Below, piece after piece: positions 4,032-62,593 of a stretch of 64,000 nucleotides of DNA. A program made the translations under genes and the position numbers. Location of the stretch: NCBI RefSeq assembly GCF_053078305.1, contig NZ_CP166879.1; one strand, written 5' to 3'. How positions within the stretch are numbered: position 1 is the stretch's first letter; every line of letters starts with the position of its first letter. Under the pieces are notes generated by a model. The model was not told where the DNA came from. It did no database searches and saw only the letters and a program-made list of their open reading frames with translations.

Positions 4032-5069
4032 ATGAACGATGAAATGAAAGGTAAAAGCGGCAAGGTCAAAGTGATGTATGTCCGCAGTGATGATGATTCT
4101 GATAAACGTACCCACAACCCGCGTACCGGGAAAGGGGGCGGGCGTCCAGGAAAATCTCGTGCTGACGGTGGCCGTCGCCCCGCCCGCGATGACAAACAGA
4201 GTCAGCCCCGTGACCGCAAGTGGGAAGAGTCGCCGTGGCGCACGGTTTCCCGCGCGCCGGGTGATGAGACGCCGGAAAAGGCCGATCACGGTGGTATCAG
4301 TGGTAAAAGTTTTATTGATCCGGAAGTGTTGCGTCGTCAGCGTGCGGAAGAAACCCGCGTCTACGGCGAAAATGCATGTCAGGCACTGTTCCAGAGCCGT
4401 CCGGAAGCGATTGTTCGCGCCTGGTTTATCCAGAGCGTAACGCCACGTTTTAAAGAAGCCTTGCGCTGGATGGCGGCAAACCGCAAAGCGTACCATGTGG
4501 TGGATGAAGCGGAATTGACAAAAGCGTCAGGCACGGAACATCACGGCGGCGTTTGCTTCCTGATCAAAAAGCGTAATGGCACAACCGTGCAGCAGTGGGT
4601 AAGCCAGGCAGGTGCGCAGGATTGCGTTCTGGCACTGGAAAACGAATCTAACCCGCATAACCTGGGTGGCATGATGCGCAGCTGCGCGCACTTCGGCGTG
4701 AAAGGCGTTGTGGTGCAGGATGCGGCACTGCTGGAGTCGGGTGCGGCTATCCGTACCGCAGAAGGCGGCGCAGAACACGTTCAGCCGATTACTGGCGACA
4801 ACATTGTTAACGTGCTGGATGATTTCCGTCAGGCGGGTTACACCGTAGTGACAACTTCCAGCGAGCAGGGTAAACCGCTGTTCAAAACCAGCCTGCCAGC
4901 GAAAATGGTACTGGTGCTGGGTCAGGAATATGAAGGGTTACCGGATGCCGCACGCGATCCGAACGATCTGCGCGTGAAGATTGACGGTACGGGCAACGTT
5001 GCCGGGCTGAATATCTCTGTTGCAACAGGCGTTTTGCTTGGTGAATGGTGGCGTCAGAATAAAGCCTGA
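4032..5069 (+). CDS. yfiF: SpoU/TrmH-family RNA methyltransferase YfiF
   Basis: ORF 3957..5069; internal start [17 protein letters not shown] gives 345 aa; basic N-terminal region then SpoU-type methylase domain. Confidence 0.8.
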
Positions 5070-5116
5070 TAAATCAGCCGGGTGGCAACTCTGCCATCCG
5101 GCATTTTCCCGCAAAT

Positions 5117-5806
5117 TTACTCACTCTCTGCCGGTAATACTGGCATCCAGTCAATCGGCGTCTCGCCATGTTGTTCCAGCCACTGATTTGCCAGCACAAA
5201 ATGGTTACAGCCAAAGAATCCACGATGCGCAGAAAGCGGTGACGGATGCGGTGCTTTCAGTACGTGATGGCGTTGCTTATCTATAATCGCCCCTTTCTTT
5301 TGCGCATGCGATCCCCACAACAAAAACACCACGCCTTCGCGATGCTGGTTAATCAGGCTGATTACTTTATCGGTGAAGGTTTCCCAGCCGAGGCTGGCGT
5401 GGGAATGCGCCTGACCTGCGCGTACCGTCAACACAGTATTGAGTAGCAGAACGCCCTGACGCGCCCAGCTTTCAAGATAACCATGATTAGGGCGGGTGAA
5501 GCCCGGAATAGTATTTTCCAGCTCTTTATACATATTCAGCAGTGACGGAGGAGTGGCGATTCCGGGGCGAACGGAAAATGCCAGCCCATGCGCCTGTCCC
5601 GGTCCGTGATAAGGATCCTGGCCGAGAATCACCACTTTAACGTCACCCAACTCGGTAAAGCGGAACGCGTTAAAGACATCTTTTTGTGGTGGATAGATAG
5701 TGACGCCGGACTGCCGCTCGCTGGCGACGGTCTGAAGGGTATTAAGAAAATAGGGTTGCTGCTTCTCTTCAGCCAGCACGTCATGCCAGGTTAATTCGTT
5801 AGCCAT
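5117..5806 (-). CDS. ung: Uracil-DNA glycosylase
   Basis: 229 aa, [11 protein letters not shown]..., [18 protein letters not shown] motif. Confidence 0.95.
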
Positions 5807-21890: not shown

Positions 21891-22187
21891 TATCTTTTAC
21901 AAGCAACTTGCAATCTTTATCATAAAAACTCGAGCCTTTACGAAGAAAGCGATATTGATGGCAAGATTAACGTGACCGCCAATTCGTAAGTACATTAAAA
22001 TTGGTTTCGTTATTGGCGATTTTGCTGTGCTTTACACCATGCCACAGAATTCCCCCATTGAAACGAGTGGTGTCGTCAAAGCTCTGGTGTGGAGTGCAGC
22101 ATGCACCCTCAATAACTCGCACGTTCAGTTTTGGGGAGATGTAAGGGCTAATCTGAACGGCTGCATTCCTTGTTTAAGGAAAAACGA

Positions 22188-22268
22188 ATGACTGATTGCC
22201 GATACCTTATTAAACGGGCCATCAAAATCATCATTGCTGTTTTACAGCTGATCCTTCTGTTCTTATAA
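22188..22268 (+). CDS. shoB: Type I toxin ShoB (26-aa hydrophobic peptide)
   Basis: ATG at 22188 encodes MTDCRYLIKRAIKIIIAVLQLILLFL then TAA; not in ORF track because under 60 aa. Confidence 0.75.
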   Translation: MTDCRYLIKRAIKIIIAVLQLILLFL

Positions 22269-22285
22269 CACAAGGAAACGTACTT

Positions 22286-22322
22286 AAGGTGCGTCCGGTG
22301 AACCAGTCGGACGCACCTTTAA
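22286..22322 (+). terminator. Hairpin after shoB
   Basis: aggtgcgtccg ... cggacgcacct 11-bp inverted repeat followed by ttaataa. Confidence 0.5.
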
Positions 22323-22462
22323 TAACTATAAATAAGTGTCTGGGCAGATACTATATAAATTAACTTAGTGAATGTTTATGCTAATAATCATCAATTAAAT
22401 AAATATAATAGCGTTAAGGTTTCCCTATAAAATAATTAATACTCTACTTCAGGAGCAGAATA

Positions 22463-22732
<270 letters not shown>

Positions 22733-22937
22733 TTACCGTTAAATTATTTTAAAATCAGTAAGTTGTATCGAGTTTGTATGCTTTACAGTTATTAACTTAC
22801 TGTATGTTGATCCAGTGTATTTAACCTTGATAAACTCAGTCCAGCAACACAAAACCGCAACACATTGCATTTTGTCCCGTAGAAAAGACTTGTATGTGTG
22901 AGCTTGTTTTCTGCGCCTACGCAGATAAGGATTGAGA

Positions 22938-24335
22938 ATGCCGCGCACTGTAACACATAATCCGGATAGCCCCAATAATGACGATGTTTTAGCCGCATCT
23001 GAAAAATGGGACGCCTGTAAACCCCCCTATACCAGCGCACACATAAAAATCTGTGTTGCTGCCGCCAAAATCATCCTCGCAGCTTCCGGCGTGGCTCGCC
23101 GTTCCAAATACGAAAAAGAGAACTATCTCCGTATCGATTTCAGCAAAGCCGGTAAGGTTACATTTTACGCCGAGTTTCCAAAAAAGATGGGCCTCAAGGG
23201 TAAAAAGCTCGGCGAGTGGCCGGAGCTCGCTATCCAGCTGGCGCGCGAAAAAGCGCTAGGTATGGCTGACTGTGGCTTGCGGGCAGAGTCCGTACATGCA
23301 GCGCTGGAAATGTACCGGGATGACCTCAAAGCCAAAGTCGCCCGGCAGAAGCTGAGCCCGGACAGTTTCACAACCTACGGGGTGCGTATCGACCGGATTA
23401 AAGCAACGTTCGGCGAGCGTGAGGTGTTCAGCGACGTAACATACAATCGGCTAGTGGAAGTGCTGGACGAGTGGATCGCCACTCGCTCGAACAATAACGC
23501 CCTGGAGTTGTTTGCCGAGCTCCGTCGGTTCTGGAAGTTCTGCGCACCTACTCTTTGTAACGGTCGCAATGTTGCTGCCAGTCTGCCAGATGATTATGTT
23601 TCCTCCCGCGTACAGAAACCCACCCCCACACGGCTTTTTACCGATATTGAGTCAATCGCCCGGCTCTGGCTCAATGTTGCCGCCTGCACCTCTGTACACC
23701 AGAAGAATGCTGTTCGCTTCATGATCATCACCGGCGTTCGTCCGATTAATGTCCATAACCTGCGCTGGGACTACGTTCACGAGGAGACTGGCGAAATTGT
23801 TTATCCTGAAGGGGTTATCGGCATGCGAGGGGCTATGAAAACACAAAAGGCTTTCCGCCTGCCAATAACGCCGGAGATCCGGCGGATTATCGACGAGCAG
23901 AAAGCATGGCGTGATTCAGTTCCTGAGTGCAACAGGGATTATGTATTTTTGCAGCCGCGTGATCCAATGCAGCCATTTTCAAAACGATCACTGGATAAGC
24001 TAGTGAAAACATACAGCCCGGATGGGGCTGTAAAAGGATTAAAACATGATGGGACTGTTAAAGGGAAAGACGGTGCATTTAATACGATGTGCCGTAAATT
24101 CCTTAAGAGCAATGTTATTGCCTTGATGAAGGAAAGAGGCTATTCCCGATCAGACCGAAGGGAAATCAGCCTCCTTTGCCTTCACCACTCCAGCAAGTCA
24201 GATGACCCGATGGCAGAACATTACGACTTTTCTGATGAGATTTTGCAGGAAGAGATTGCGTTAAAGCGCGAAGCTTTCGAGGCTCACGAGCGGAGCATAC
24301 TTGCGCAGGTGGCATTGCTACGGCGGCGAGGTTAA
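22938..24335 (+). CDS. int: Phage integrase, tyrosine recombinase family
   Basis: Adjacent to attL; C-terminal region with R...H..R...Y-type catalytic signature (ITGVRP..., LHHSSKSD..., AEHY); ATG at 22938 preceded by aagga. Confidence 0.8.
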   Translation: MPRTVTHNPDSPNNDDVLAASEKWDACKPPYTSAHIKICVAAAKIILAASGVARRSKYEKENYLRIDFSKAGKVTFYAEFPKKMGLKGKKLGEWPELAIQLAREKALGMADCGLRAESVHAALEMYRDDLKAKVARQKLSPDSFTTYGVRIDRIKATFGEREVFSDVTYNRLVEVLDEWIATRSNNNALELFAELRRFWKFCAPTLCNGRNVAASLPDDYVSSRVQKPTPTRLFTDIESIARLWLNVAACTSVHQKNAVRFMIITGVRPINVHNLRWDYVHEETGEIVYPEGVIGMRGAMKTQKAFRLPITPEIRRIIDEQKAWRDSVPECNRDYVFLQPRDPMQPFSKRSLDKLVKTYSPDGAVKGLKHDGTVKGKDGAFNTMCRKFLKSNVIALMKERGYSRSDRREISLLCLHHSSKSDDPMAEHYDFSDEILQEEIALKREAFEAHERSILAQVALLRRRG

Positions 24336-24532
24336 TACCGGCTGCGACACTTTTGAATAAAAGCGTCGACATTGCGGCGCTCATAACGAACTACTTTTGC
24401 ACTGAAACGAATTGGTGCCAGGATAGCCCGATGACGATGCTTAATATTCCACTCACATAGCGTTTTCTGTGTAATACCTAACTTTTGGCATACTTCATCC
24501 GGGGTGAGTAAATCGTCGGGTTTCTCGCTCAT
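24332..24532 (-). CDS. AlpA-like HTH DNA-binding protein (putative excisionase/regulator)
   Basis: 66 aa, LLTPDEVCQKLGITQKTLCEWN helix-turn-helix; next to integrase. Confidence 0.6.
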   Translation of the reverse strand: MSEKPDDLLTPDEVCQKLGITQKTLCEWNIKHRHRAILAPIRFSAKVVRYERRNVDAFIQKCRSRY

Positions 24533-25923
24533 GCTATACCTCTCTTTTTCATGGCATCGAGCAGGATGTCCTGCACTGTTCGTTTTGAGTTGCGCCGCTC
24601 CATCACCATTTCGTCCATAGTGTCGGCAGCAATAATGTGGTGAATAAATACCGGACGATTGTGTCCGGCTTGTATCTGCCTGGTGGGGCCGATACGTTCA
24701 ATAATTTGCTGATATTGCTCCAGGTCCCACCAGTGTGAGAAAAATACCAGTATATTTCCGCCGTCTTGCATGTTCAGGCCGTGGCCCGCGCTGGCTGGGT
24801 GTGCAAAGAGAACAGGAATCTTTCCGGAATTCCAGTCGCGCAGTGTCTGTGGATCCTGGTCGAGGTGACGACCGCGAGGGAATGCTTTAAGCAAGCGTTC
24901 AAGATCGTGTTTCCAGTGATAAGCAACCAGCACAGGTGCGCCAGCTGCTTCGGCCAGTATGCTGTCCAGCGCCTGTAGTTTGGTGTCATGCAGTTCTGAC
25001 CAACTTCCGGTGTCGTCTGTGTATACTGCGCCACTGGCGATTTGAAGACACTTCAGTGTCTTTGCCGCGGCGTTCGGTGCTTCGATGCCTTCGCCATTCA
25101 GCTCGAGGAACATTTCCTTTTCCATTTCACGATACTGCTGACGGGCCTTCGGGGGCATATCCACGCGGATTACGTTATGGATGGGGTCTTTGATATCGAA
25201 CCAGTCGGCCGCATCCAGCGAGAGGGTCACATCGGCTAACGCTCGCTGTATTTCACCCTGTGAGTGAGCAAAAGGCTCCAGTTTGGTCCAGCTCTGCCCC
25301 GGAAACTGTATCGATTTGAACCAGCGTGAGGTAAATGCGCCGTAAGTGCGCCCGAGACGTTGCCCCAGGTCCACAAACCACGATTGTCCCCACAAATCTA
25401 CCAGGCCGTTCGGTGCTGGCGTACCGGTGAGATTTATCCAGCGCCGGACATACTTGTGCGCCACTTTGCCCAGCGCCGCCGCGCGCTTACCACCACCTCG
25501 CAGCCGGAAGGATTTTAGCCGGGTGCTTTCATCTGGAATGACAGTACCGAACGGCCATCGTTCTCCCAATTCCTCAACCAGCCAGACAAGGTTATCGTAG
25601 TTGATGGTGAACACGCTCGCGTTGTTGTTCGCCAACGCTGCAGAGCGCGCTTTGGCATTACCAACAATTGGTTGTACCTCGATATTGCGCAAATGCCCCC
25701 ACTTCAGTGCTTCATCCGGCCAGGTGTTTGCTGCAACGCGTAGCGGCGCGAGGACCAGCGCGGGGCGTGTTTCTGCTCCAGCCATGAAAAGATCTTCCAG
25801 CGTGGTGAGTGTCGCTACGGTTTTACCCATCCCCATCCCTGCCCAGATGTTGCCGCGCAGAATGTCGGTTTGGTGATTGATTATGAGGTTTTGATAAAGT
25901 CGGGGGTGGAATATGTTATTCAT
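24529..25923 (-). CDS. Superfamily-2 (SNF2/DEAD-like) helicase
   Basis: GMGKTVATL Walker A, DEST(R) motif II, C-terminal helicase domain; start placed at MNNIFHPRLYQ (ORF extends to 25998). Confidence 0.7.
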   Translation of the reverse strand: MNNIFHPRLYQNLIINHQTDILRGNIWAGMGMGKTVATLTTLEDLFMAGAETRPALVLAPLRVAANTWPDEALKWGHLRNIEVQPIVGNAKARSAALANNNASVFTINYDNLVWLVEELGERWPFGTVIPDESTRLKSFRLRGGGKRAAALGKVAHKYVRRWINLTGTPAPNGLVDLWGQSWFVDLGQRLGRTYGAFTSRWFKSIQFPGQSWTKLEPFAHSQGEIQRALADVTLSLDAADWFDIKDPIHNVIRVDMPPKARQQYREMEKEMFLELNGEGIEAPNAAAKTLKCLQIASGAVYTDDTGSWSELHDTKLQALDSILAEAAGAPVLVAYHWKHDLERLLKAFPRGRHLDQDPQTLRDWNSGKIPVLFAHPASAGHGLNMQDGGNILVFFSHWWDLEQYQQIIERIGPTRQIQAGHNRPVFIHHIIAADTMDEMVMERRNSKRTVQDILLDAMKKRGIA

Positions 25924-25985
25924 TAATACACCTATGGTAGAATATGTGTCAATTCTCTCTCTATATATAACTAACGGAGGCGGGT

Positions 25986-26783
25986 ATGCCCCTGGCAAAA
26001 ATACTTACAAAACAAGTTTCTTTATTAACTGTTTTTTCAGCGTTAGCTTATGTGATGGCATATTCTTTTCAGAAAGGTGTTGCATCGTATTATGGCTATC
26101 CAGCCCTTTTTATTAAAATAGATTTAAATACGCTATTGTATTCGGCTGTATGGCTTTTGTTTTTTAGTTTTTTATTTCTCGGTGCCTTATACGCGACATT
26201 GATGTTTGATTTGAAAGGGAAATATTATGTTCCATTTATTATATTTATAGTGGTTATGCTAATACCTAATTTTTACATAATAGGATTCCATTGGCCTTTT
26301 GGTTATTTCTCAGAAACCTCTGTGATGAGTGTTGGAGATATTTTATTATTTGCTCTGCTTTTGTTGAATTACCACAATGCGGTGTCCGCGTCAATCCATA
26401 GTAAGAGACACGAACATCATATGGATAGCATTAGAAAATTTGGGAGGCTTGCAGAGTATAAAGACGTATTTTATTATATCGATTTAAAAATCCTAAAATC
26501 AGCTTTTCCTTTAGGGGTGATGACATTATTGATATTGAGCTATACCTTCGGGAAGGTTACTGCATTTAAAAATAACGAATATTATATGGTAGATGGTAGT
26601 AATACTAAAGTGTTGCTCAATTCATTTGGTAGTGGTTTTGTTGTTGGTGATTGTGAGTCCAATAGCGCAAAATTTGAATTTGTTAATGATTTAAAAGGGA
26701 TGAAATTCACAGTCATGTCCTCTAAAAAGGAAATAGCTAAATTAAAAGAGTGTTTCGAAACACGTGTTAAAAATACGGATTAA
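25986..26783 (+). CDS. AT-rich multi-pass membrane protein of unknown function (cargo)
   Basis: 265 aa, at least four hydrophobic helices; strongly AT-rich codon usage versus neighbours; ggagg RBS 6 nt upstream; extended -10 TGgTAGAAT at 25945..25953. Confidence 0.5.
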   Translation: MPLAKILTKQVSLLTVFSALAYVMAYSFQKGVASYYGYPALFIKIDLNTLLYSAVWLLFFSFLFLGALYATLMFDLKGKYYVPFIIFIVVMLIPNFYIIGFHWPFGYFSETSVMSVGDILLFALLLLNYHNAVSASIHSKRHEHHMDSIRKFGRLAEYKDVFYYIDLKILKSAFPLGVMTLLILSYTFGKVTAFKNNEYYMVDGSNTKVLLNSFGSGFVVGDCESNSAKFEFVNDLKGMKFTVMSSKKEIAKLKECFETRVKNTD

Positions 26784-26795
26784 AGTATAAGTCTT

Positions 26796-27083
26796 TTATC
26801 TTTTATTGCGGCTTAAAATAATTTCCTCCAGATTTTTGCTATCCAGCACCACCACGGTAAAGCCCAGCTCGCGCAGCCGCTTGTGCTCGCGCAACTGGTC
26901 GGCGCGTGGTGCTTTGCCGGGTGCTTTGCATTCAACGAAAACAAGACGGCCGCCGGGTAGCAGAACAATGCGATCCGGTACCGAGCGGCGACCAGGTGAT
27001 ATGAACTTAAAGGCGACCCCACCAGCCTTTTTCACTTCGGCGACGAGATGCTTCTCGATTAGGTTTTCACGTTCATATATCAT
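26796..27083 (-). CDS. VRR-NUC domain nuclease
   Basis: 95 aa with PD-(D/E)xK-like DRIVLLP...VFVECK motif typical of VRR-NUC; commonly partnered with phage SF2 helicases. Confidence 0.7.
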   Translation of the reverse strand: MIYERENLIEKHLVAEVKKAGGVAFKFISPGRRSVPDRIVLLPGGRLVFVECKAPGKAPRADQLREHKRLRELGFTVVVLDSKNLEEIILSRNKR

Positions 27084-27125
27084 ATGACGTTTCCTTTAGC
27101 CCTCTAGTTTGAGGGCTGGGAATCT

Positions 27126-27677
27126 TTAGCGACGGCTGGGATGAATTTTTTCACGGAGAACTAAGGTTAGTTGTTCTAGTGTCAATGGCTCGCCAAAATT
27201 CTCATGAAATAATGGATTGAATACATGCATCATGCGTTCGTATGTTGCCAGCGAAGGCGTGTGAGAATTAAGATCTCTTAATTTGAATTCTTCAAATCTA
27301 TCCAGTTTATTGATGACGAAATCAGCGGCTGCAAGATACTCAGTTTCGTTATTTCCATCGAATCCTTTGAATATTGGATTTTTTCCAAATAACTCAACAT
27401 TTTCTTTTAACTTCTTTTTTTCTTCTTCTGTAAGTTCACTGTAGCTATATTCAATAACTCTCCACATATCTAGGATGTCTAGAACTTTTTTTACAACACG
27501 TGGAGTTTCGGTATTTTTAAATGGAATACCACTAAATTTCCAAGGGAGTGCCCATGTTTGGTTTTCGAATATAGCATCACGGACAAATGTGTGATCGATT
27601 TCGCCTTCAATCTCGTTTTTATCGTACAGGTCACACAGCATCATTAGAATTAGTTTTTCGCCATCTGAAAGTTGCAT
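27126..27677 (-). CDS. YfbU-family (UPF0304)-like protein, function unknown (cargo)
   Basis: 183 aa; blocks M.LSDGEKLILMML, VKKVLDILDMW, FKGFDGNNETEYL...RFEEF and YERMMHVF resemble E. coli YfbU as recalled from memory; AT-rich. Confidence 0.45.
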   Translation of the reverse strand: MQLSDGEKLILMMLCDLYDKNEIEGEIDHTFVRDAIFENQTWALPWKFSGIPFKNTETPRVVKKVLDILDMWRVIEYSYSELTEEEKKKLKENVELFGKNPIFKGFDGNNETEYLAAADFVINKLDRFEEFKLRDLNSHTPSLATYERMMHVFNPLFHENFGEPLTLEQLTLVLREKIHPSRR

Positions 27678-27682
27678 GTTTT

Positions 27683-28192
27683 TTATCCTTGAGTGTTAAA
27701 CGTTAAATCATCAACGAGTAGATCTATGTGAGGTTGAATAGCCAATATTTTTGCATGCAAAACTCTACCTGTTCTTAACTTTTCCGCAGGAGTTTTTGCA
27801 TCTGAAAGCTCAGAAATATTTTCCCTTATTTCAGCACAAAAATTTTCTGAGTCTATGCTCAATTTTACTTTATTGTTAGGTTTTATTGCTTGGGCTGCAA
27901 ATAAATCGATGAAATCCTCTATTTCAGAAATTATTGGTTCTAAACTTATGCCTCGAACATTTTCCTCATTCGAACCAGGACCAATTGCTCTTAGAGATTT
28001 TATGGCGGTTGATAACTTTCCATGAAGGTTGCCTGCGTCCCTTATACTACGTTGATAATTGACCGTAGCTAAAGCCTTTTGAGCTTCTGTGGCGGCATCC
28101 CGCGACTTTTTCCACCCCCATAGTGAACACATAGCACCAACTATGGTAACAAAAGTACCTATCCTTGATAGCCAGACATCTGTATTTTCCAT
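27683..28192 (-). CDS. Membrane-anchored protein of unknown function (cargo, upstream partner of the YfbU-like gene)
   Basis: 169 aa, single N-terminal TM helix (WLSRIGTFVTIVGAMCSLWGW) then soluble domain; 5-bp gap to downstream gene; AT-rich. Confidence 0.45.
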   Translation of the reverse strand: MENTDVWLSRIGTFVTIVGAMCSLWGWKKSRDAATEAQKALATVNYQRSIRDAGNLHGKLSTAIKSLRAIGPGSNEENVRGISLEPIISEIEDFIDLFAAQAIKPNNKVKLSIDSENFCAEIRENISELSDAKTPAEKLRTGRVLHAKILAIQPHIDLLVDDLTFNTQG

Positions 28193-28277
28193 TAAAGCAC
28201 CAAAAACAATCTGTTAAGGATAGCTATATGATACATATATCTTCAATGATGTCATGTATCTGATTTGTGAGCTGTGA

Positions 28278-30341
28278 TCAGTCCTTACGGTAGTGGTACG
28301 CCTCAAAACCGCCAGCGTTCAGTGGGATATCGGGCGCCCATTCGGGGTTAGTGGAGAGAAGCGCGGAAAGCGCTTTATCGTTGAAATCTTCTGTGTCAGG
28401 TGCTTCGGTGATCACCTCGTCGTGTACCGTCAGCACAATGCTGTAACCGGCATCTTCGATAAGCGGCATGTTTCCGGCCAGAACGTCGCGGGCGGCCGCT
28501 TGGGTGACGTTCTCCACCAGCTTTCCGCCGTAGGTTTTGAGTCGTTGCCATTTACGTGAATAAGAGTTAACACCCATATAGGTGATATTCCCTTTTTCGA
28601 TAATCGGAGACGGGTAGCATACAGCGCGTCCAGATGGCAGCTGTATGCGCAGCCACGCGCCATCACGTCGGATTTTAAGATAGCCGCAATACAATGTTTT
28701 TTGCGGTGTGGCGATTGCAGTGCGGACGGTGCGCTCCAGTTCGTACCAGAAATCACAGGTCGCGGGATGCGCCCGGCGCCAGAGACGTTTAAGTGAGTCG
28801 CAGGCGATAAATACCCGTTCAGAAAGCCCGTAGGTTGACTTGCGTTTAACCGATTCGTCGTACCAGCTTTTCGCCTCGCGGATAACATCGCGGGGAATGT
28901 TTGGTAGTGCGGCGTTCGCCAGCTCGTCGAGATCGAGACCGTAAACCAGTGCAAAAGTGATGAAGGCCGACACACCACCACCATAACCCAGACCGAGTTC
29001 CATGACTTTACCGATCTGACGCATGTGTTTATCAACATCATCTGGTGCAATATCGAAAGCTTTTGCATACGCCAGTTTATATAAGTCCGGACCCGTTCCG
29101 GCGTCGTACTCTCTGAATGCATTCAGTTTCCATTCTTCTCCCGCCAGCCATGCCAGCATACGGCCTTCAATGTTCGACAAGTCACTTACCACCAGCTTTT
29201 TGCCTGTTGGCGCGATAATGCAGCCACGTAACGCTGAACTGGTTAGTTCCATGATATTGTCAAACAGCAGGTCTGCACATCCGGCTTTCAGTGCTTCGAT
29301 GCCTTCGTCTATTTGTTCCTGTTTTAGTGAAGGGCGGGGAAGGTTCTGGGGCTGGAATAGCCGTCCGGCCCAACGACCGGTACGTGACGCCCCGCAGAAC
29401 TGTAGCGTACCGCGTAAGCGCCCGTCGTGGCTTACGCCTTTCATCAGTGCCTTGTATTTACTGGTGCTGGTAGTACTGGCCTGCAGGCGGATAGCCAGCA
29501 GTTCTTTCACGGCAGATGGTAAATCGGGGTCGGCAATACGACGTTCCAGAGTACTGCGTTGCATGTCTGGTAGCTCCACACCGTAGGATTCAACAATGTG
29601 CTTAATCAACGCGTCTCGTTGTGTGGCTGCCTGCACTTCGCCATCAGTCATTTCCTGTGTACGCTTTGCCAGGCGCTTTTGTTCCTGGTCTACCGCGTCG
29701 ATCGCAGCGCGTGCGAGTTCCACGTCCATGCAGACGCCCCGGTCATTGATCTGCTGATCACGATGCCAGAGCGCCAGTTCTGTCCCCTGATAATTCCACT
29801 TCGGCAGACGTTTATAGACTTCGCGCATTGCCTCGATATCCAGTCCGGCGTAAGCAACAAAGCGCCGCCATTCTTCCGGGTGGGTTTTGCTGGTGGCCCG
29901 GCGCAGTTTGCTGTTTTTCGGGCGTGGCTTACAGAACAGCTGGATCAGCGCTTTACCTTCTTTGTCCTTCGCTTTGTCTTGCGGGACGCCTAGTACTTCG
30001 CAGAGTTCCCCCAGAGACCCCGGGAGACCGTGCGCCAGCGCCTGCACCATTGTGTCGCGCCAACGTTCGACTGGCGGTGCCAGGCGCGGCATTGCATAAC
30101 GCAGAACGGTGCGGTCGAAGTGAGAGTTATGGAAATAAAGCAGGGTTTCAGGGTCTGCGATTGCTTCGTATAAGCCGTGTGGAATACCACCACCGGCAGT
30201 GATATCCCACACGTTTACTGGCCCGTCGTTGATAGCCCATGCGAAAAGCATCACTTCAACGCCTTCGGCATACGCATGGGTACCGTTCGTAATAGGGATT
30301 TCGCAATAGGTTTCCAGGTCGCCCCATAGTATATTGGACAT
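28278..30341 (-). CDS. Family-A (Pol I-like) DNA polymerase
   Basis: 687 aa; motif B-like [16 protein letters not shown] and motif C-like [12 protein letters not shown]-terminal region consistent with a 3'-5' exonuclease domain. Confidence 0.72.
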
Positions 30342-30387
30342 GTGTTTACCTTGGTTTTTATTCTATTAACTGATTAAAAGATTAATT

Positions 30388-31017
30388 ATGCATATGATCC
30401 AATACTTGATTGACCATACAGAGCATCTGGAGAAAATAGCTGGATATATTTTTTCATGTTTGATTGTTATGGGAGTCTGGATAAGAAAGATCATTTTTAA
30501 TTATAAGTATAAAGAGCCTAAATATGTCAAGAAGTTAATTTTATATTTAGTTAAGTATGAACGTTATCTGGATGAGGAGGATAAGAGTGCCATAGAAAAA
30601 AGAATAAATGATAAAATTATTCGTGATGCGCTGAAATTGCAATCCTCTTATAACCGAAGAGATGTTATTTACATTTGCAATAGATTAGAAAAAAGACAGT
30701 ATATAAATCAGTTGATTAAGCTTCAGAATTATATAGAGAAAGATAACGGAGTGTTTTTTATTAATGTTGATTTTTCAGGTTTTTTATTTATTATTAGTCG
30801 TCTGTTTTCCTTTCTGTGTTTTGTGCTGTTTACCCTTTTTTCTATTATCTGCATTATTTCCATAGGGCAAAATGAAGGCCTTTTAAATTATCTTGTGTAT
30901 ATGGTTATGATAATAGTTTTAGAGACTGTTGGTTTTTGGATGTATGATACTTTCCCGTCTAAGAAAAAGATCTGTGAACTAAATAAAGAATTGAGAAAGA
31001 TTAAGATTCCTGAGTGA
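30388..31017 (+). CDS. AT-rich membrane protein of unknown function (cargo)
   Basis: 209 aa, one N-terminal and two C-terminal hydrophobic helices, K/E-rich middle; very AT-rich; divergent from polymerase gene. Confidence 0.5.
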   Translation: MHMIQYLIDHTEHLEKIAGYIFSCLIVMGVWIRKIIFNYKYKEPKYVKKLILYLVKYERYLDEEDKSAIEKRINDKIIRDALKLQSSYNRRDVIYICNRLEKRQYINQLIKLQNYIEKDNGVFFINVDFSGFLFIISRLFSFLCFVLFTLFSIICIISIGQNEGLLNYLVYMVMIIVLETVGFWMYDTFPSKKKICELNKELRKIKIPE

Positions 31018-31033
31018 TTATACGCCTAATCAG

Positions 31034-31058
31034 TAGCCCGGTGTTTAACCGGGCGTCT
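31034..31058. terminator. Hairpin between convergent genes
   Basis: gcccggt-gttta-accgggc 7-bp stem; no strong U-tract. Confidence 0.35.
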
Positions 31059-31069
31059 ATGAAGTAGGG

Positions 31070-31618
31070 TTAAATTAGTGCTTCAGCATCAGCACCTTCG
31101 CTGATATCGTCGAAATCGTCAGCGCTTGCCACTCCGCCGCCAGCGAATGCATCGCCGTCTCGCAGGAACTGGACTCCGCCGAGTGAGGCATTAATGCGTT
31201 TACCGAAATTATTGTCCTGTGCCCAGATATCGATAACGGCGTTTACATAGCACCCTGCATAGGGACGTCCGTCAGCCTGAATAAGTGGCGAACGATCGCG
31301 ATCAAGAACAGCTGGGCGCGCTTTGTTAGCAGCATTCAGGAAGAAATTACCGGGGAAGCCTTCATACTCTGCTTTTTCATCACCATCATGCAGGCACAGA
31401 TTGAGTTTTTTCTCCAGCTGGTTATAAATGGGCTCCCACTTCTCTCCCCATTTTTCCTTCGCTACCTGCTTCATAGCTTTACGGATTTCTTCCAGTTGTG
31501 GGTGTTTGGGAGACATTAAAAATACTGCGGAGAAACGCGGATCGCCTTCGCCGTTTACAGTTTTAGCTTCAAACAGAGACGGGAAGGCCAGACGAACATT
31601 GTTCAGCTTCAGTTTCAT
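31070..31618 (-). CDS. Putative phage ssDNA-binding protein (DUF2815-like)
   Basis: 182 aa with acidic C-terminal tail (DDFDDISEGADAEALI) typical of SSB-like proteins; co-occurs with the downstream nuclease in phage replication modules. Confidence 0.55.
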   Translation of the reverse strand: MKLKLNNVRLAFPSLFEAKTVNGEGDPRFSAVFLMSPKHPQLEEIRKAMKQVAKEKWGEKWEPIYNQLEKKLNLCLHDGDEKAEYEGFPGNFFLNAANKARPAVLDRDRSPLIQADGRPYAGCYVNAVIDIWAQDNNFGKRINASLGGVQFLRDGDAFAGGGVASADDFDDISEGADAEALI

Positions 31619-31633
31619 GGGTATTTCCTTAAA

Positions 31634-32935
31634 TCAGATGAGGTCTGCGGTTAGCGTATCGTCGGATACGTCGTCGAAATCATTTACAGGGTTGATATTG
31701 AGTGCGGGGCGTGGGTCTGACTCGGGAACGACGGTTGGTTTACCATCAGCTCGTGTTATCAGTGCCTCGACTTTTGACCAACGGCGTGGACTGGCCTTTT
31801 TGATAAGTTTTTCGGCTTTTGTGGGACTAATAAGTTTAAAGTCGAATACTTCTTCAGTTTTGTACCTGAACTGGTCCTTCAGAAGTGCGCGAGCTGCCTC
31901 TTCATCACTCCAGGCCCGGTTACCTTGTTTTCCTGTTACCAGTTTAAACCCCGGTACCGGATGTCCGGCATTGAGTTCATTGTGAACCCGGTCCCGTACT
32001 GCCTTTAGCCAGGATTCAATAAAGTCGGCCTGGCTATAGATCTCCGCAAGCTGCTCAATGGTTAACAGAGGTACACGTGCGCTGGCATTGGTGATTATTT
32101 CGCTGACAGGCTTTGTCAGATCTTCAAAATCGCTGGCCGCTGTTTGTAAATGCTGCATTTTCTGGGCAGTGCAAATAGCTTTTGCTTTACAGAAGCGGCA
32201 CTGTTTTTCTCCAGGTATGAAGTTTTCCAGCGGTAGTGTCTCAATGCCTTCGCATTCAGCAATATTGAGAACAAGGATCGCACTGGTTGCGGCCTCCTGT
32301 GCCCGTTCACCGAAAGACTGAAGTTCCTGTACGGTTAACGACCATTCTGAAACGTGGTTGAGCCTTGGCTGGTGAATAAATAATCTTACAGTCTCAAAGT
32401 CATACAGCATGCTGAATTGTTCGAGCGCACCCAGAGCATACAGTTGTAGTTGCTCATTTTGTTCTGCATCAATGCGGACGCCTTTGCCATATTTCAGGTC
32501 GTGGATTTGTAATTCGTTACCAGCGATGATTATGCCGTCGGCAGTTCCGAAAGATTCTTCCACCCCCGTTATATGTGAGAAATCAACACGTTGTTCAACC
32601 AATAGTTCATTATTCTGTGCAAGAGTCCAGACCGTATCAACATACCGGCCAACGGCTTCGACCATTTCATCATCCACCTGTGGGCCAGATGTATCATCAG
32701 GATTTTCGCGAAGGGGGTATGAGCCGAGAAACATAGAAACATTGCATCCGGCGTAGTGTTCCGGGTGGCTTTGCCTGTTTCGTAGAACTTTTTCAGCAAG
32801 CGCGTGCGCTGCAGTGCCCTCGATTGCAAAAGTTGTTTCTTTATCCGGTTGTGTGGCCTCCAGCGCCAGACTTCCTGGGCAGCGCATCCATCGATGCGCT
32901 GATGATGGAGAAAGTTGTGCATGAACGTCTGGCAT
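31634..32935 (-). CDS. PD-(D/E)XK nuclease, Cas4/RecB-like (DUF2800-like)
   Basis: 433 aa; C-terminal cysteine cluster [10 protein letters not shown] plus additional Cys residues resembling a Cas4-type Fe-S motif. Confidence 0.6.
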
Positions 32936-34619: not shown

Positions 34620-35243
34620 CTAACGTTTACGGCGGTAAATACGGTGTTCGATCATTACACCTATGATCTGTAAGTTCATATCTGCACTACGAAAAATAGG
34701 GTAATCAGGATTTAGGGGGATTAATTCAAAGTCGTCGATGCCGATTCCTAATGGACGGTATTTTTTAAATGTAGCTTCGTGACCGTCGTTTTTGGCGACA
34801 ACAAACTCCCCTGGTGCAGGACATAGTTCAGGATCGATGATAACAATGTCTCCTTCTTTAAACTCTGGTTGCATGCTGTCGCCATCAATACGTAATGCGA
34901 AGCATGTTTCTGGAATGTCAGAGTCTGCCAAAATATATTCAAATTCCCCTGTCAGATCTGTTATGTCTCTTGCTTCTGTAAGCTCTCCTGCCTGAACGTA
35001 ACTTAATATAGGTATGCGTCTGGTACTTATCTCCGCGAGAGGCATAATATTTTTACCGTTCAGTAGCCAGTCTGGGCTACATTTCAAGGCCTTAGCCAGA
35101 TCCAGAAGATTGCGTGGCTTTCTGGTTCGTCCACTTTCGATGGATTCTATGGATTGTTGGCTAACCCCTGCAGAATTCGCTACTTCCACTTGAGTCATTC
35201 CTAATTCCAAACGACGTGCTTTAAAACGGGCTGCGAGAGACAT
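34620..35243 (-). CDS. cI-like prophage repressor (HTH_XRE plus S24 LexA-like peptidase)
   Basis: N-terminal HTH (LGMTQVEVANSAGVSQQSIESIESG) and C-terminal GDSM...K catalytic dyad; start at MSLAARF. Confidence 0.85.
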   Translation of the reverse strand: MSLAARFKARRLELGMTQVEVANSAGVSQQSIESIESGRTRKPRNLLDLAKALKCSPDWLLNGKNIMPLAEISTRRIPILSYVQAGELTEARDITDLTGEFEYILADSDIPETCFALRIDGDSMQPEFKEGDIVIIDPELCPAPGEFVVAKNDGHEATFKKYRPLGIGIDDFELIPLNPDYPIFRSADMNLQIIGVMIEHRIYRRKR

Positions 35244-35363
35244 GGGATTAGTCCTTCTGGGTTGTATTAATGTGTATACCCACATTAAAAACAATTTTTG
35301 TTGTATTTGACAAACCTCATTTGTTGTTGCTAAATACCACTAAAATTGTATGAGGTGAAAGCA
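35244..35363. promoter_or_regulatory. Divergent repressor/cro control region with operator palindrome
   Basis: Perfect 8-bp inverted repeat ttaatgtg-N6-cacattaa at 35267..35288; TTGACA at 35307..35312 and TAAATA at 35331..35336 oriented toward cro. Confidence 0.5.
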
Positions 35364-57961: not shown

Positions 57962-59160
57962 TGGCTCTGAACCTTGATTCTCTCGGTTTATCTGCAAAGG
58001 TAACCGCGGAGGGGATCAGTGCGCCTGATTATCAGACGATACTCAGCACCCTGATTAGCTATTTTCAGCAGATTTATGGCAGTGATGCCTACCTCGAACC
58101 GGACAGCAAAGACGGCCAGATGGTGGCTCTGATGGCGCTGGCGATTCATGATGCCAATAATATGGCGATAACTGTCTACAACTGTTTTTCACCGGCAACC
58201 GGCTATGGGGCTGCACTGACCAGTAACGTGAAAATAAATGGTATTTCACGTAAAGGCGCGACGAACTCTACGGTTGATTTGCTTCTTACAGGAACTGCCG
58301 GAACAACCATCATTAATGGCAGCGTGAAAGACAGTAATAATGTGATATGGCGTTTGCCTGCTTCAGTAGTGGTCGGCGTGGATGGTACAGTGATGGCGAC
58401 CGCAACATGTTCCGTCAGTGGTGCAGTGGCGGCGCTGGCTGGAACTATCACTGAAATTAATACGCCAACCCGTGGCTGGGTTTCGGTAACTAATCCTGCT
58501 GCGGCTACTGTGGGCACTCTGGCAGAAACTGACGCGGAGTTACGTATCCGTCAGTCGCAAAGTGTTGCGTTGCCATCAATAACCCCATTTGAAGCACTGG
58601 ATGGTGCTGTTTCTAATGTTACCGGTGTAACCCGCCACAAACTCTATGAAAACGATACTGGTTCGGAGGACGGTAACGGGTTACCGCCACACTCTGTTGC
58701 TGTAATTGTGGATGGCGGTGATGTGACGGATATTGCTCAGGCTATCAGAGGGAATAAAGGCCAGGGGACAGCCACTCACGGTACAACATCCGTTACGGTT
58801 CCGGATAAATACGGCAATCCCCATGTAATCAAATTCTCGCGTTCCAGTGATGTGCCTGTTTATGCCCGGATTAAATTAAAAGTTTTTACGGGTTATACCT
58901 CACAGATAGGGCAGCAGATCCAGCAGGCTATTTCCGACTATATCAATAGTTTGACGATTGGTGATTCGGTCCTTTTAAGTCGCATTTACTCACCGGCGAA
59001 TCTTGGCGTGGTGAGTGGCGGGAATGCACGCTATTACGATATTCAGGAACTGACGATTGGGAAATCCCCGGGGGCTTTGTCGTCATCAAACATTGATATC
59101 AGATACAACGAATCTGCGTCCTGTACCCCGGAAAATATCGTTATAACGGTGGAGTCATGA
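57961..59160 (+). CDS. Baseplate J-like protein
   Basis: 399 aa; size and position typical of baseplate J. Confidence 0.6.
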   Translation: MALNLDSLGLSAKVTAEGISAPDYQTILSTLISYFQQIYGSDAYLEPDSKDGQMVALMALAIHDANNMAITVYNCFSPATGYGAALTSNVKINGISRKGATNSTVDLLLTGTAGTTIINGSVKDSNNVIWRLPASVVVGVDGTVMATATCSVSGAVAALAGTITEINTPTRGWVSVTNPAAATVGTLAETDAELRIRQSQSVALPSITPFEALDGAVSNVTGVTRHKLYENDTGSEDGNGLPPHSVAVIVDGGDVTDIAQAIRGNKGQGTATHGTTSVTVPDKYGNPHVIKFSRSSDVPVYARIKLKVFTGYTSQIGQQIQQAISDYINSLTIGDSVLLSRIYSPANLGVVSGGNARYYDIQELTIGKSPGALSSSNIDIRYNESASCTPENIVITVES

Positions 59161-59837
59161 GCAAATACACCGAACTAATCACGAACTACCACGCCACCAA
59201 ACCTAAATTTCTTGCGCATGTTGATCTGATGACCCGGCCGCTTATTGATGTTGCGGCTGCCACCAGAGGGCTGATTACTGCATTTGATATTGACTCTGCG
59301 GTTGGTGTGCAACTTGACATTCTGGGATTGTGGATCGGACGTAGCCGTGTTGTCAGCCAGCCTATCTCAGGTGTCTATTTCAGCTGGGATACCGACGGGC
59401 TTGGATATGATCAGGGGGTATGGCAGGGACCATACGATCCTGATTCCGGATACATGTACCTCAGCGATGAAACTTATCGTGTCATTCTTAAAGCGAAGAT
59501 TGCGATTAATAACTGGGATGGACGGAATGATTCGCTTCCGGCAATTCTTGACGCTGCAACAGCAGGATCCGGGCTGCGAATGCAGATAGTCGATAACCAG
59601 GACATGACGATATCGGTCTGGGTCTTTCCTGATACTGATATTTCAGATGTATCGCGTGAGTTAATTGCGGCAATTAAACAGGGGTATCTCACAGTAAAAG
59701 CCGCCGGGGTATGGGCGGGTGGCATTGAAACACCTTCGGTGGAAACCCCATCGGAAGGCTCAAAATTTTTTGGTTTTGATATGGATAACGAATTCATCAG
59801 TGGTTTTGATGTAGGAGCATGGGGAGTATTACTCTGA
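59157..59837 (+). CDS. Baseplate wedge/tail fibre attachment protein (Mu gp48 / P2 I-like)
   Basis: 226 aa following baseplate J. Confidence 0.5.
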   Translation: MSKYTELITNYHATKPKFLAHVDLMTRPLIDVAAATRGLITAFDIDSAVGVQLDILGLWIGRSRVVSQPISGVYFSWDTDGLGYDQGVWQGPYDPDSGYMYLSDETYRVILKAKIAINNWDGRNDSLPAILDAATAGSGLRMQIVDNQDMTISVWVFPDTDISDVSRELIAAIKQGYLTVKAAGVWAGGIETPSVETPSEGSKFFGFDMDNEFISGFDVGAWGVLL

Positions 59838-60292
59838 TGGCGAAAAATGACTTTAAAGCGTTTGCAACGGATCGAAATGCCAATGTTATATCGCAGGAGG
59901 AATGGGAAGCGTTGCCCGCGCTTTTATCCGGATTTACAGCAGGGAAAGCCTCCAGTGCGCAAGTCAATAAGGTTATTCGGCAGGTCAGCTTTATTGCTGC
60001 AGCTCTGGCCCAGTTTGTAAGTGATAAAACGCAACGGGATGTGCTTGATAATGGTGATCTGCCCGGTTTTGTTGAATTGCTGGGATCGGGGTTTGCTGTT
60101 GAATACCTGAGCCGCAAGAATCCGTTTGGTGATATCAAATCGGATGGCACGGTGAAAACGGCTCTCGAAAACCTTGGTTTGGGAGAAGAGCACAGCGTTA
60201 AGCCGGGTTGTTTCTGCCTGCGTCAGCTTCCGCCCGGCCTGCAATTTCAGCTGAATCAGACTAATGGAAGCCATAGCCGCATCAATCAGTGA
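59819..60292 (+). CDS. Tail fibre, constant N-terminal part; truncated in the present orientation of the invertible segment
   Basis: ORF crosses the left recombination site at 60174 (…ALENLGLGE) and then reads antisense to tfa for about 40 codons to a stop. Confidence 0.55.
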   Translation: MGSITLMAKNDFKAFATDRNANVISQEEWEALPALLSGFTAGKASSAQVNKVIRQVSFIAAALAQFVSDKTQRDVLDNGDLPGFVELLGSGFAVEYLSRKNPFGDIKSDGTVKTALENLGLGEEHSVKPGCFCLRQLPPGLQFQLNQTNGSHSRINQ

Positions 60293-60715
60293 CTGGCGCC
60301 GTACTTCTGCCGCGTCTACTGCGGCGTTATGCTGTGCCTCAGTGTCGGTCACCCATTTCTCACCATCCCATTTATCGTATGACGTTAACGGGGCGATAGT
60401 GGTTGTATTTTCAGGGTAATCACCCGGAACTGTGATTTCTTTTGATTCTCCTGTTTCGGTGCTATAGACGATTTCACCGCGATGGTCTGGCACATATTCC
60501 CATGAGTTAAAATCTGCAGAACGGCAAATTGCATAACCAGCTTTATATGAGCCAGGAGCATCTAAACAGGAACATGCCGGGATACCGACACCCACAGCAA
60601 GATATTCAGTTGATGTGGAAATATATTCCCGTGTTTCACCATCATAATTATAAACGGTAATGTCTCCGGCCTTTGTGGCGATGAGTTCATTATTTAATAC
60701 AGCTTTACTTATCAT
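59924..60715 (-). CDS. Tail fibre assembly protein (Tfa/U-like); ORF currently reads through the left recombination site
   Basis: N-terminal 180 aa inside the segment resemble Tfa proteins (…SWEYVPDHRGEIVYSTETGESKEITVPGDYPENTTTIAPLTSYDKWDGEKWV…); last 83 codons lie outside the segment, antisense to the fibre gene. Confidence 0.6.
   Translation of the reverse strand: MISKAVLNNELIATKAGDITVYNYDGETREYISTSTEYLAVGVGIPACSCLDAPGSYKAGYAICRSADFNSWEYVPDHRGEIVYSTETGESKEITVPGDYPENTTTIAPLTSYDKWDGEKWVTDTEAQHNAAVDAAEVRRQSLIDAAMASISLIQLKLQAGRKLTQAETTRLNAVLFSQTKVFESRFHRAIRFDITKRILAAQVFNSKPRSQQFNKTGQITIIKHIPLRFITYKLGQSCSNKADLPNNLIDLRTGGFPCCKSG
60162..60187. repeat. Left recombination site of invertible segment (gix/hix-like, 26 bp)
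   Basis: ctctcgaaaacc-tt-ggtttgggagaa: two 12-bp quasi-palindromic half-sites around a 2-bp core, inverted copy at 61171..61196. Confidence 0.65.
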
Positions 60716-61224: not shown

Positions 61225-61250
61225 TCCTGCTTTTGTCAGGGAGATCTACC

Positions 61251-62533: not shown

Positions 62534-62593
62534 TATAAGTACTCGCTAATATTGAACGATATATATATATCAAATTATTATAAAACTCGTCAG

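What the first reader, a model, noticed from the sequence alone, without database searches (positions are those of the whole stretch)
25924..26783. AT-rich multi-pass membrane protein with its own promoter wedged between helicase and VRR-NUC genes
The SF2 helicase and VRR-NUC nuclease usually sit side by side in phage replication modules. Here they are separated by an oppositely oriented, strongly AT-rich 265-aa membrane protein gene with a good RBS and an extended -10 element (TGgTAGAAT at 25945..25953). Orientation, composition and membrane localisation mark it as acquired cargo, possibly a superinfection-exclusion or abortive-infection effector.
Basis: partly seen in the sequence, partly recalled or inferred. 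Interest (0 to 1): 0.5.

Follow-up and report, generated by a model that had tools for sequence, protein, structure and literature searches.

The report
Swappable prophage membrane-protein cargo gene
An AT-rich gene for an inner-membrane protein of unknown function sits in a swap-prone slot of an E. coli prophage where related phages carry known anti-phage genes, so it is a plausible but untested phage-exclusion gene.

Summary
A 265-codon ORF lies at 25986-26783 (+), at 32% GC against about 54% in its flanks. It sits between a minus-strand SNF2 helicase and a VRR-NUC gene, with a GGAGG ribosome-binding site.

It is a real gene under purifying selection (dN/dS 0.12-0.25). The predicted protein has five membrane helices, N-terminus in and C-terminus out. 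A small SH3/Sm-like barrel with a covarying cysteine pair faces the periplasm.

The window is E. coli chromosome with a roughly 40-kb prophage next to yfhL. In related prophages the segment 25897-26816 is a cassette hotspot. It carries the validated abortive-infection gene BstA, candidate PDC-S42, DUF6338, Dcm, Rha/Arc, or three alleles of this family that align only weakly to one another.

The family also occurs in lambdoid and P2-like prophages. It carries the Pfam label PF27470 "TfpB"; its only named relative is an uncharacterised Moraxella pilin-inversion ORF. It is unrelated to the FimB/TfpY pilin accessory proteins.

Cargo status is well supported. The function is inferred only. Superinfection exclusion at the envelope is my leading guess, and abortive infection is the main rival. 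Interest is moderate.

The parts
25897..26816 (.). Slot-1 variable cassette. It is replaced wholesale in related prophages. It includes the first ~9 helicase codons, the 62-nt spacer, ORF265 and the last ~7-13 codons of VRR-NUC.
   Evidence: blastn of the window against 13 related loci: backbone identity (94-97% in E. coli) ends at 25896-25922 and resumes at 26815-26835.
25935..25943 (+). Extended -10 promoter element TGgTAGAAT (putative promoter of ORF265). It overlaps the helicase ribosome-binding region on the other strand.
   Evidence: Sequence. One of 4 TGNTANAAT matches in the window. Conserved in Raoultella, and the Yersinia allele has TGaTATTAT at the same offset. Not experimentally verified; no -35 hexamer.
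25976..25980 (+). Shine-Dalgarno GGAGG, 5 nt upstream of the ATG.
   Evidence: Sequence.
25986..26783 (+). ORF265: a 265-aa inner-membrane protein of the PF27470 'TfpB'-labelled family.
   Evidence: dN/dS is 0.12-0.25.
26013..26126 (+). TM1 (aa 10-36) plus the predicted periplasmic loop 1 (aa 37-47), carrying the family signature Y22..Y26.FQ.G31.....G37.P39..F42 I43..D46. This is the best-conserved part of the family.
   Evidence: Mean top-residue frequency is 0.46 and 0.58 here, against 0.15-0.32 elsewhere. It is the only region that aligns with the Moraxella ORF.
26376..26483 (+). Predicted cytoplasmic, K/R/H-rich loop (about aa 131-166). Poorly conserved and absent from many homologues.
   Evidence: 48% gaps and 0.15 conservation; 7 K/R residues.
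26571..26780 (+). Predicted periplasmic C-terminal domain: a five-strand SH3/Sm-like small barrel plus a helix. Cys223 is at 26652-26654 and Cys256 at 26751-26753.
24529..25923 (-). SNF2-family helicase (left backbone flank).
   Evidence: PHROG 62, E 3e-154; RefSeq annotation of the orthologue.
26796..27083 (-). VRR-NUC / PD-(D/E)XK nuclease (right backbone flank). It converges on ORF265 with a 12-nt gap.
   Evidence: PHROG 93, E 1e-29; RefSeq annotation.

Best explanation
ORF265 is a horizontally exchanged accessory gene (a moron) of a roughly 40-kb temperate phage integrated beside yfhL in E. coli.

It occupies a cassette hotspot between the helicase and VRR-NUC genes of the phage's leftward early/replication gene block. 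It points against that block, so it can be read from its own extended -10 promoter while the lytic genes are repressed.

The product is a five-helix inner-membrane protein, N-terminus in the cytoplasm. Its conserved parts are TM1, the following loop and a disulfide-stabilised SH3/Sm-like barrel. These lie in or near the membrane on the periplasmic side.

Most likely it protects the lysogen from other phages at the envelope. That would be superinfection exclusion: interference with genome delivery across the inner membrane or periplasm.

Shown: the gene is real and under selection; its topology; its cargo and hotspot status; its family membership; and known defence genes in the same slot.

Inferred: expression in lysogens and the exclusion activity itself. 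I put about 0.9 on the cargo-membrane-protein description and about 0.4-0.45 on exclusion at entry as the function.
For: Cargo and hotspot. 158 E. coli genomes have the helicase but none matches 80% or more of the 3.8-kb region, and 16 have ORF265. The breakpoints are sharp. Alternative slot contents are BstA alone or with Dcm, a PDC-S42 three-gene cassette, DUF6338, Rha/Arc, small proteins and two co-oriented ORFs in the isolated phage vB_EcoM-606R2. Slot 1 and slot 2 assort independently (L002).

One family, diversified in one slot. The L025-type (22 genomes) and L027-type (6 genomes) cargos match the family HMM at E 2e-37 and 5e-31. A Yersinia allele sits at the same junction at about 24-31% identity.

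Mobility between phage types. The family is found in lambdoid prophages and in a P2-like prophage between gpS and gpV. An intact copy sits among what look like leftover genes of the same prophage type.

Functional gene. dN/dS is 0.12-0.25, against 0.04-0.08 for the helicase.

Topology. K+R density is 0.179 in predicted cytoplasmic segments and 0.052 in predicted periplasmic loops, and 40 of 41 sequences agree. The Cys pair covaries 31/10/0. The model has pLDDT 91.6.

The conserved core is TM1 plus loop 1, while the largest cytoplasmic loop is dispensable. This points to action in the membrane or periplasm rather than cytoplasmic sensing.
Against: There is no experimental or homology link to any known exclusion or defence protein. 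PADLOC, NCBIfam and Pfam-A give nothing, and PHROGs gives only a weak hit to an unknown family.

Guilt by location is weak evidence, because the slot also holds non-defence-looking genes (Rha/Arc, Dcm).

DNA at 32% GC is a typical H-NS target in E. coli (established knowledge), so expression in lysogens is uncertain. The promoter lacks a -35 hexamer and no terminator follows the gene.

No isolated phage or plasmid in the collections carries the gene. The commonest E. coli allele of the family (L025-type) is truncated.
Confidence: 0.45

Rival explanations
1. It is an abortive-infection effector. The membrane protein stays inert until infection, then permeabilises or depolarises the inner membrane, killing the cell before the invading phage matures.
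For: The same slot carries BstA, a validated abortive-infection protein (PMC8585504). Multi-pass membrane effectors are common in abortive systems (general knowledge, e.g. RexB). The gene is a single-gene cassette with its own promoter.
Against: There is no partner sensor gene. The cytoplasm-facing parts are tiny and poorly conserved, and the 131-166 loop is missing in about half the family, which leaves little room for an intracellular trigger. No PADLOC match.
Confidence: 0.2
2. It is a lysogenic-conversion factor unrelated to phage defence. It would alter an envelope machine or surface structure, for example a pilus- or secretion-type machinery as hinted by the Moraxella relative embedded between pilin genes, or otherwise affect host fitness.
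For: The only named relative lies inside the Moraxella lacunata pilin inversion segment. A copy sits in the Serratia chromosome after proA with no phage genes nearby. An intact copy sits among what look like prophage leftovers. Fold relatives are widespread outside phages.
Against: No pilin or secretion genes lie near any enterobacterial copy. The protein is unrelated to the established pilin accessory family FimB/TfpY (hhalign probability 0.1%). Very deep divergence between alleles in a single slot of near-identical prophages is what conflict-driven genes usually show.
Confidence: 0.17
3. It is an accessory protein of the phage's own lytic cycle, for example membrane anchoring of replication or control of lysis timing.
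For: It lies inside the replication module.
Against: It is absent from most relatives and replaced by unrelated genes. It is oriented against the replication genes. It appears in quite different positions in lambdoid and P2-like prophages. It has no homology to replication or lysis families.
Confidence: 0.05
4. It is a spurious or decaying ORF in AT-rich junk DNA.
For: Annotated only as 'hypothetical protein'. One allele of the family in E. coli is truncated.
Against: The chance of an open frame of this length is about 7e-10. dN/dS is 0.12-0.25 over three orthologues. There are 48 family representatives at E<=1e-3. The AF2 model is confident. The Cys pair covaries.
Confidence: 0.02

Closest known systems
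Pfam PF27470 'TfpB'; I take the namesake to be the tfpB ORF of the Moraxella bovis/lacunata pilin inversion region (from memory of Fulks 1990 and Rozsa & Marrs 1991, not checked here)
   Same: Precomputed PF27470 hits appear on homologues P0006 and P0009 (unmarked), P0002 and P0007 (weak), and P0011 (faint). The Moraxella lacunata ORF between the pilin copies and piv (L094 4996-5583 plus 4800-5006) shares the N-terminal Y..AY...G.A.Y.GYP motif (hhalign probability 89%, E 2e-6). It also shares the multi-helix-plus-small-C-terminal-domain layout.
   Different: The similarity is confined to 47 N-terminal columns. The Moraxella ORF lacks the Cys pair and is frameshifted in this strain. It lies among pilin genes, whereas ORF265 lies in a prophage with no pilin nearby. 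Neither has a known function.
BstA, a prophage-encoded abortive-infection protein (Owen et al. 2021, PMC8585504)
   Same: It occupies exactly the same slot, in the same opposite-strand orientation, in sister prophages. It is a single-gene cargo.
   Different: There is no sequence relationship. BstA is a soluble KilA-N-like DNA-associated protein, and ORF265 is an integral membrane protein.
Classical membrane superinfection-exclusion proteins: P22 SieA, T4 Imm, HK97 gp15, phi80/N15 Cor (from general knowledge)
   Same: Prophage- or phage-encoded, small, envelope-located, single genes outside the essential modules.
   Different: No detectable homology; PHROGs gives only an unknown-function hit at E 0.004. 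ORF265 is larger, with five helices and a periplasmic barrel. Its activity is untested.
FimB/TfpY-like type IV pilin accessory proteins (PF27166; PMC11841053)
   Same: Similar size, N-terminal membrane helices and a periplasmic C-terminal domain.
   Different: A different Pfam family. hhalign probability is 0.1%. TfpY has three helices and a beta-alpha-beta domain (PMC11841053), against five helices and an all-beta barrel here. FimB homologues were found next to pilins in 26 ORFs among 85 pilin loci, while the ORF265 family HMM hit only the M. lacunata ORF.
DUF6338 membrane protein
   Same: An alternative occupant of the same slot. It is AT-rich (34% GC), with N-terminal membrane helices. The strand-rich look of its C-terminal half is my reading of the sequence only.
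   Different: Not significantly similar (family HMM E 0.03).

Membership tests
PF27470 (TfpB) | Match to the Pfam profile | tested here: inconclusive
   The Pfam-A library available to profile_search returned nothing even at E<=10, so it probably predates PF27470. Precomputed hits exist on homologues at 57-87% identity and on more distant ones. The 99%-identical cluster P0001 has no entry on record.
PF27470 (TfpB) | Homology to the Moraxella pilin-inversion ORF | tested here: met
   hhalign of the family alignment A1 against the L094 ORF: probability 89%, E 2e-6, 47 columns over the signature motif. The HMM alone gave E 0.006 with high bias.
PF27470 (TfpB) | Location next to type IV pilin genes | tested here: not met
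   No pilin genes appear in the window neighbourhood or in any enterobacterial locus examined.
FimB/TfpY pilin accessory proteins (PF27166) | Sequence homology | tested here: not met
   hhalign of A1 against D. nodosus FimB: probability 0.1%. FimB carries PF27166, not PF27470.
FimB/TfpY pilin accessory proteins (PF27166) | Three membrane helices plus a mixed beta-alpha-beta periplasmic domain | tested here: not met
   The model has five long helices, then five strands and one helix. The TfpY architecture is as described in PMC11841053.
Prophage moron / hotspot cargo | Variable presence at a fixed position among otherwise similar phages | tested here: met
Prophage moron / hotspot cargo | Deviant base composition | tested here: met
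   32.5% GC against 52-54% in the flanks.
Prophage moron / hotspot cargo | Own promoter and own terminator | tested here: inconclusive
   An extended -10 is present and positionally conserved. There is no -35 hexamer and no terminator was detected. Transcription was not measured.
Superinfection-exclusion proteins | Envelope location | tested here: met
   By prediction only: hydropathy, the positive-inside rule, Cys covariation and the AF2 model.
Superinfection-exclusion proteins | Expressed from the prophage in lysogens | not testable with these tools
   Needs RNA-seq or 5' RACE.
Superinfection-exclusion proteins | Blocks entry of superinfecting phage DNA without killing the cell | not testable with these tools
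   Needs phage challenge and DNA-entry assays.
Known anti-phage defence systems (PADLOC-DB 2.0) | Match to any defence-protein model | tested here: not met
   0 families at E<=1.

The most novel reading that the evidence does not exclude
The PF27470/TfpB-labelled proteins are a previously unrecognised, widespread family of single-gene, inner-membrane phage-exclusion determinants. They diversify by cassette exchange in the hotspots of several unrelated temperate-phage lineages (the yfhL-type, lambdoid and P2-like). Their conserved TM1-loop motif would engage a common host or phage entry component, and the variable helices and barrel would set specificity.
Probability: 0.3. Interest if true: 0.6.

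Novelty: new member of a known kind. Interest (0 to 1): 0.4.

Why it matters
If the family does exclude phages, it adds a new membrane-level defence class that current defence catalogues miss. It would also give a function to a Pfam family that has none.

Independently of that, the helicase|VRR-NUC junction and the neighbouring VRR-NUC|polymerase junction of this common E. coli prophage type are compact, well-delimited hotspots. They already hold BstA, a TIR-domain candidate (PDC-S35) and PDC-S42. The uncharacterised occupants are therefore a short, testable list of defence candidates. They are this family, DUF6338, the 106-108-aa proteins and the YfbU-like pair.

Tried and rejected
Searches that found nothing for ORF265:
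- PADLOC, NCBIfam and Pfam-A: no hits. PHROGs gave only a weak hit to an unknown-function family.
- Foldseek against PDB: nothing at E<=0.001.
- Foldseek against AFDB50: 59 hits at E<=0.001; every description in the 50 listed is 'uncharacterized' or DUF-only.
- tblastn against 50,697 phage records and 72,556 plasmids: no match.
- IMG/VR: only 92-100% relatives.
- Rfam: nothing in 22000-32000.
- Flanking repeats: no inverted repeats, and only short direct repeats of the kind that chance produces.
- Terminator after the ORF: none.
- Literature searches for PF27470, DUF6338 and the protein accessions: nothing useful.

Searches that could not run or added little:
- The profile re-search of the word-indexed protein database added nothing.

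Ideas rejected:
- 'TfpB' meaning the TfpY/FimB pilin accessory family. I located D. nodosus fimB through its pilin. It is PF27166 and unrelated.
- 'TfpB' meaning the Acinetobacter baylyi TfpB. That is a PilB-like ATPase (PMC8213720), so this is a name collision.
- The helicase start at TTG 25998, which would overlap ORF265. RefSeq orthologues start at the ATG at 25923.

Full report
**1. What is in the sequence**

The window is E. coli chromosome. The genes rnc-era-recO-pdxJ-acpS-shoB-yfhL run up to about 22.7 kb, as shown by near-identical annotated loci. A prophage begins with a tyrosine integrase at 22932-24335 (+).

Leftward from a CI/LexA-like repressor (34620-35294) runs a minus-strand block:
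- a 300-aa ORF
- DUF2800
- DUF2815/Enc34 single-strand-DNA-binding protein
- family-A DNA polymerase (28278-30341)
- VRR-NUC (26796-27083)
- SNF2 helicase (24529-25923)
- an AlpA-like gene

IMG/VR holds 40-kb versions of this element. The isolated phage vB_EcoM-606R2 shares the module, so this is a real temperate phage type.

The reported ORF is at 25986-26783 (+), ATG start, 265 aa. GC is 32.5%, against 52-54% in the flanking genes. GGAGG lies 5 nt before the ATG.

It has no -35 partner, and the two-hexamer scan did not list it. The motif TGNTANAAT occurs only four times in the window. It is conserved in the Raoultella orthologue, and a Yersinia allele has TGaTATTAT at the same offset.

The element overlaps the helicase ribosome-binding region on the other strand. 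No terminator follows the ORF. ORF265 and VRR-NUC converge with 12 nt between their stop codons.

**2. It is a real, selected gene**

- An open frame of 265 codons at this composition has a chance probability of about 7e-10 (my arithmetic).
- Against the IAI1 allele (94% nt) and the Raoultella allele (86.5% nt), dN/dS is 0.25 and 0.12. The helicase gives 0.08 and 0.04.
- An exhaustive HMMER search of 1.84 billion representatives gave 48 proteins at E<=1e-3, six of them at E<=1e-10.
- The named members are 'hypothetical proteins' of Serratia, Yersinia, Enterobacter, Raoultella and E. coli.

**3. The protein**

Hydropathy and an AlphaFold2 model (pLDDT 91.6, pTM 0.86) give five long helices: 13-36, 47-76, 81-98, 116-152 and 167-195. 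These are followed by five strands and a C-terminal helix.

Across 41 family members, K+R density is 0.179 in the segments predicted to be cytoplasmic. It is 0.052 in the predicted periplasmic loops, and 40 of 41 sequences agree.

The two cysteines of the C-terminal domain (C223, C256) are both present in 31 sequences, both absent in 10, and never present singly. This is the pattern expected of a disulfide, and hence of a periplasmic domain. The topology is therefore N-in, C-out.

Conservation is concentrated in TM1 and the loop after it: Y22, Y26, G31, G37, P39, I43, D46. G189 and the cysteines are also conserved. The 131-166 cytoplasmic loop is the least conserved part and is missing in about half the family.

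**4. Known families**

- PADLOC, NCBIfam and the available Pfam-A give nothing. PHROGs gives only a weak hit to an unknown family.
- Precomputed annotation labels homologues PF27470 'TfpB'.
- I tested what that name could mean. The Acinetobacter 'TfpB' is an ATPase, so this is a name collision (PMC8213720).
- The pilin accessory family FimB/TfpY (PMC11841053) is PF27166. I found this by locating D. nodosus fimB through its pilin. It is unrelated to ORF265 (hhalign probability 0.1%), and its published architecture differs.
- I scanned 85 pilin loci from genomes with the family HMM. The best hit, and the only one with an E-value below 0.01, was an ORF inside the Moraxella lacunata pilin inversion segment, between the two pilin copies and piv.
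- That ORF shares the N-terminal signature (hhalign probability 89%, E 2e-6). This matches my recollection of 'tfpB' in the Moraxella literature, which I could not check. Its function is unknown, so the label gives no mechanism.
- Fold relatives in AFDB50 number 59 at E<=1e-3 and span several phyla. Every description in the 50 listed is 'uncharacterized' or DUF-only.

**5. Cargo status and the hotspot**

Of 5426 complete E. coli genomes, 158 carry the helicase, and none matches 80% or more of the 3.8-kb region. ORF265 is in 16 genomes. Backbone homology stops at 25896-25922 and resumes at 26815-26835. The exchanged unit therefore includes the first helicase codons and the last VRR-NUC codons.

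In sister prophages the slot holds:
- BstA (PADLOC E 1.4e-115; PHROG 'BstA abortive infection system'), alone or with a Dcm methylase
- a three-gene cassette whose first gene is candidate PDC-S42
- a DUF6338 membrane protein
- Rha/Arc regulators
- 106-108-aa proteins
- two co-oriented small ORFs in the isolated phage

Two further E. coli cargos are members of the same family as ORF265, at E 2e-37 and 5e-31. I call them the L025-type (22 genomes) and the L027-type (6 genomes), after the loci where I found them. A Yersinia allele at about 24-31% identity sits at the same junction.

On these counts about 44 of 158 prophages of this type carry one of three deeply diverged alleles. The caveat is that I checked the slot position on representatives only.

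The neighbouring junction, VRR-NUC|polymerase (27078-28281), is a second hotspot that assorts independently (L002). It holds a TIR-domain PDC-S35 candidate or an ATP-binding protein in relatives.

**6. The family moves between phage types**

- Lambdoid prophages of Enterobacter, between dinI and the lambda-P-like gene, in opposite orientation.
- A lambdoid prophage whose close relatives in the protein cluster come from Serratia, between dnaB and Q.
- A P2-like Yersinia prophage, between gpS and gpV.
- An apparently phage-free site after proA in Serratia.
- An intact copy next to an 89-aa ORF and a short Enc34-like gene, which I read as leftovers of this prophage type.

**7. Mechanism**

The gene is a single-gene cassette oriented against the repressed early block and has a promoter of its own. 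Its conserved surfaces are in or beyond the membrane, and its cytoplasmic parts are dispensable. Its alleles diverge far more than their carriers do. It also alternates with proven and candidate defence genes.

The best-supported reading is prophage-conferred protection acting at the envelope, meaning superinfection exclusion at genome entry. I give that about 0.4-0.45. Abortive infection through membrane damage gets about 0.2. It is disfavoured because there is no evident cytoplasmic sensor.

A non-defence conversion role gets about 0.17, possibly tied to pilus-like machinery because of the Moraxella relative. A role in the phage's own lytic cycle gets about 0.05. An artefact gets about 0.02.

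Every functional step is inference. AT-rich DNA is also a usual H-NS target in E. coli, so expression is not assured.

**8. Verdict**

The cargo interpretation is well supported. The defence guess is reasonable and now better motivated, but unproven.

This is a new, uncharacterised member of a familiar kind of feature: hotspot cargo of temperate phages. Interest is moderate.

Noticed in passing
window 27078-28281 (ORFs 27126-27677 and 27683-28192, minus strand): A second AT-rich cassette (36-38% GC) lies between VRR-NUC and the DNA polymerase. It holds a YfbU-like protein (PHROG 6084 E 7e-42; NCBIfam YfbU E 2e-15, below the cutoff) and a 169-aa protein with an N-terminal hydrophobic stretch (my reading of the sequence). 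In relatives this slot holds a TIR-domain PDC-S35 candidate with an ANR regulator, or an ATP-binding protein. It assorts independently of slot 1.
   Followed up: partly
window 30388-31017 (+): A third AT-rich island (26-29% GC) lies between the polymerase and the DUF2815 gene. It holds an opposite-strand 209-aa ORF (PHROG 10579, unknown function, E 3e-108; no PADLOC hit). Relatives carry other genes here, for example an Nmad5-family protein.
   Followed up: partly
window 25923-25998: The mechanical ORF list starts the helicase at TTG 25998, which would overlap the ORF265 start. RefSeq orthologues start at the ATG at 25923 (464 aa). The first ~9 helicase codons differ between relatives because the cassette boundary lies inside the gene.
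   Followed up: yes
L025 1760-2347 (E. coli O111:H11 strain 8D and 21 other genomes): The commonest E. coli allele of the family is only 195 aa. It ends just after the first conserved cysteine, with 130 nt of non-coding DNA before VRR-NUC. A full-length 234-aa relative exists (P0025), so this allele looks truncated.
   Followed up: partly
L094 3048-6269 (Moraxella lacunata NCTC10359): This is the pilin inversion region: an expressed pilin, an ORF related to ORF265's family that is split by a frameshift (4996-5583 and 4800-5006), a partial second pilin in inverse orientation, and piv. A FimB-like fragment also lies nearby at 957-1283.
   Followed up: partly
window 59157-61805: Tail-fibre and tail-fibre-assembly genes lie in both orientations (59924-60715 and 60712-61224 on the minus strand, facing plus-strand ORFs), followed by a 196-aa ORF at 61215-61805. 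This looks like an invertible host-range segment of the Mu/P1/e14 kind. The invertase was not checked.
   Followed up: no
window 62001-63000: Another low-GC stretch (36%) lies near the far end of the prophage. Its 215-aa ORF (61886-62533, minus strand) has no PHROG match.
   Followed up: no
L116 4902-8845 (metagenome contig next to uvrC-pgsA): An intact 265-aa family member (57% identical) sits beside an unannotated 89-aa ORF in the position VRR-NUC normally takes and a 114-aa Enc34-like gene. No other prophage genes are seen, so the membrane gene may have outlived its phage.
   Followed up: no
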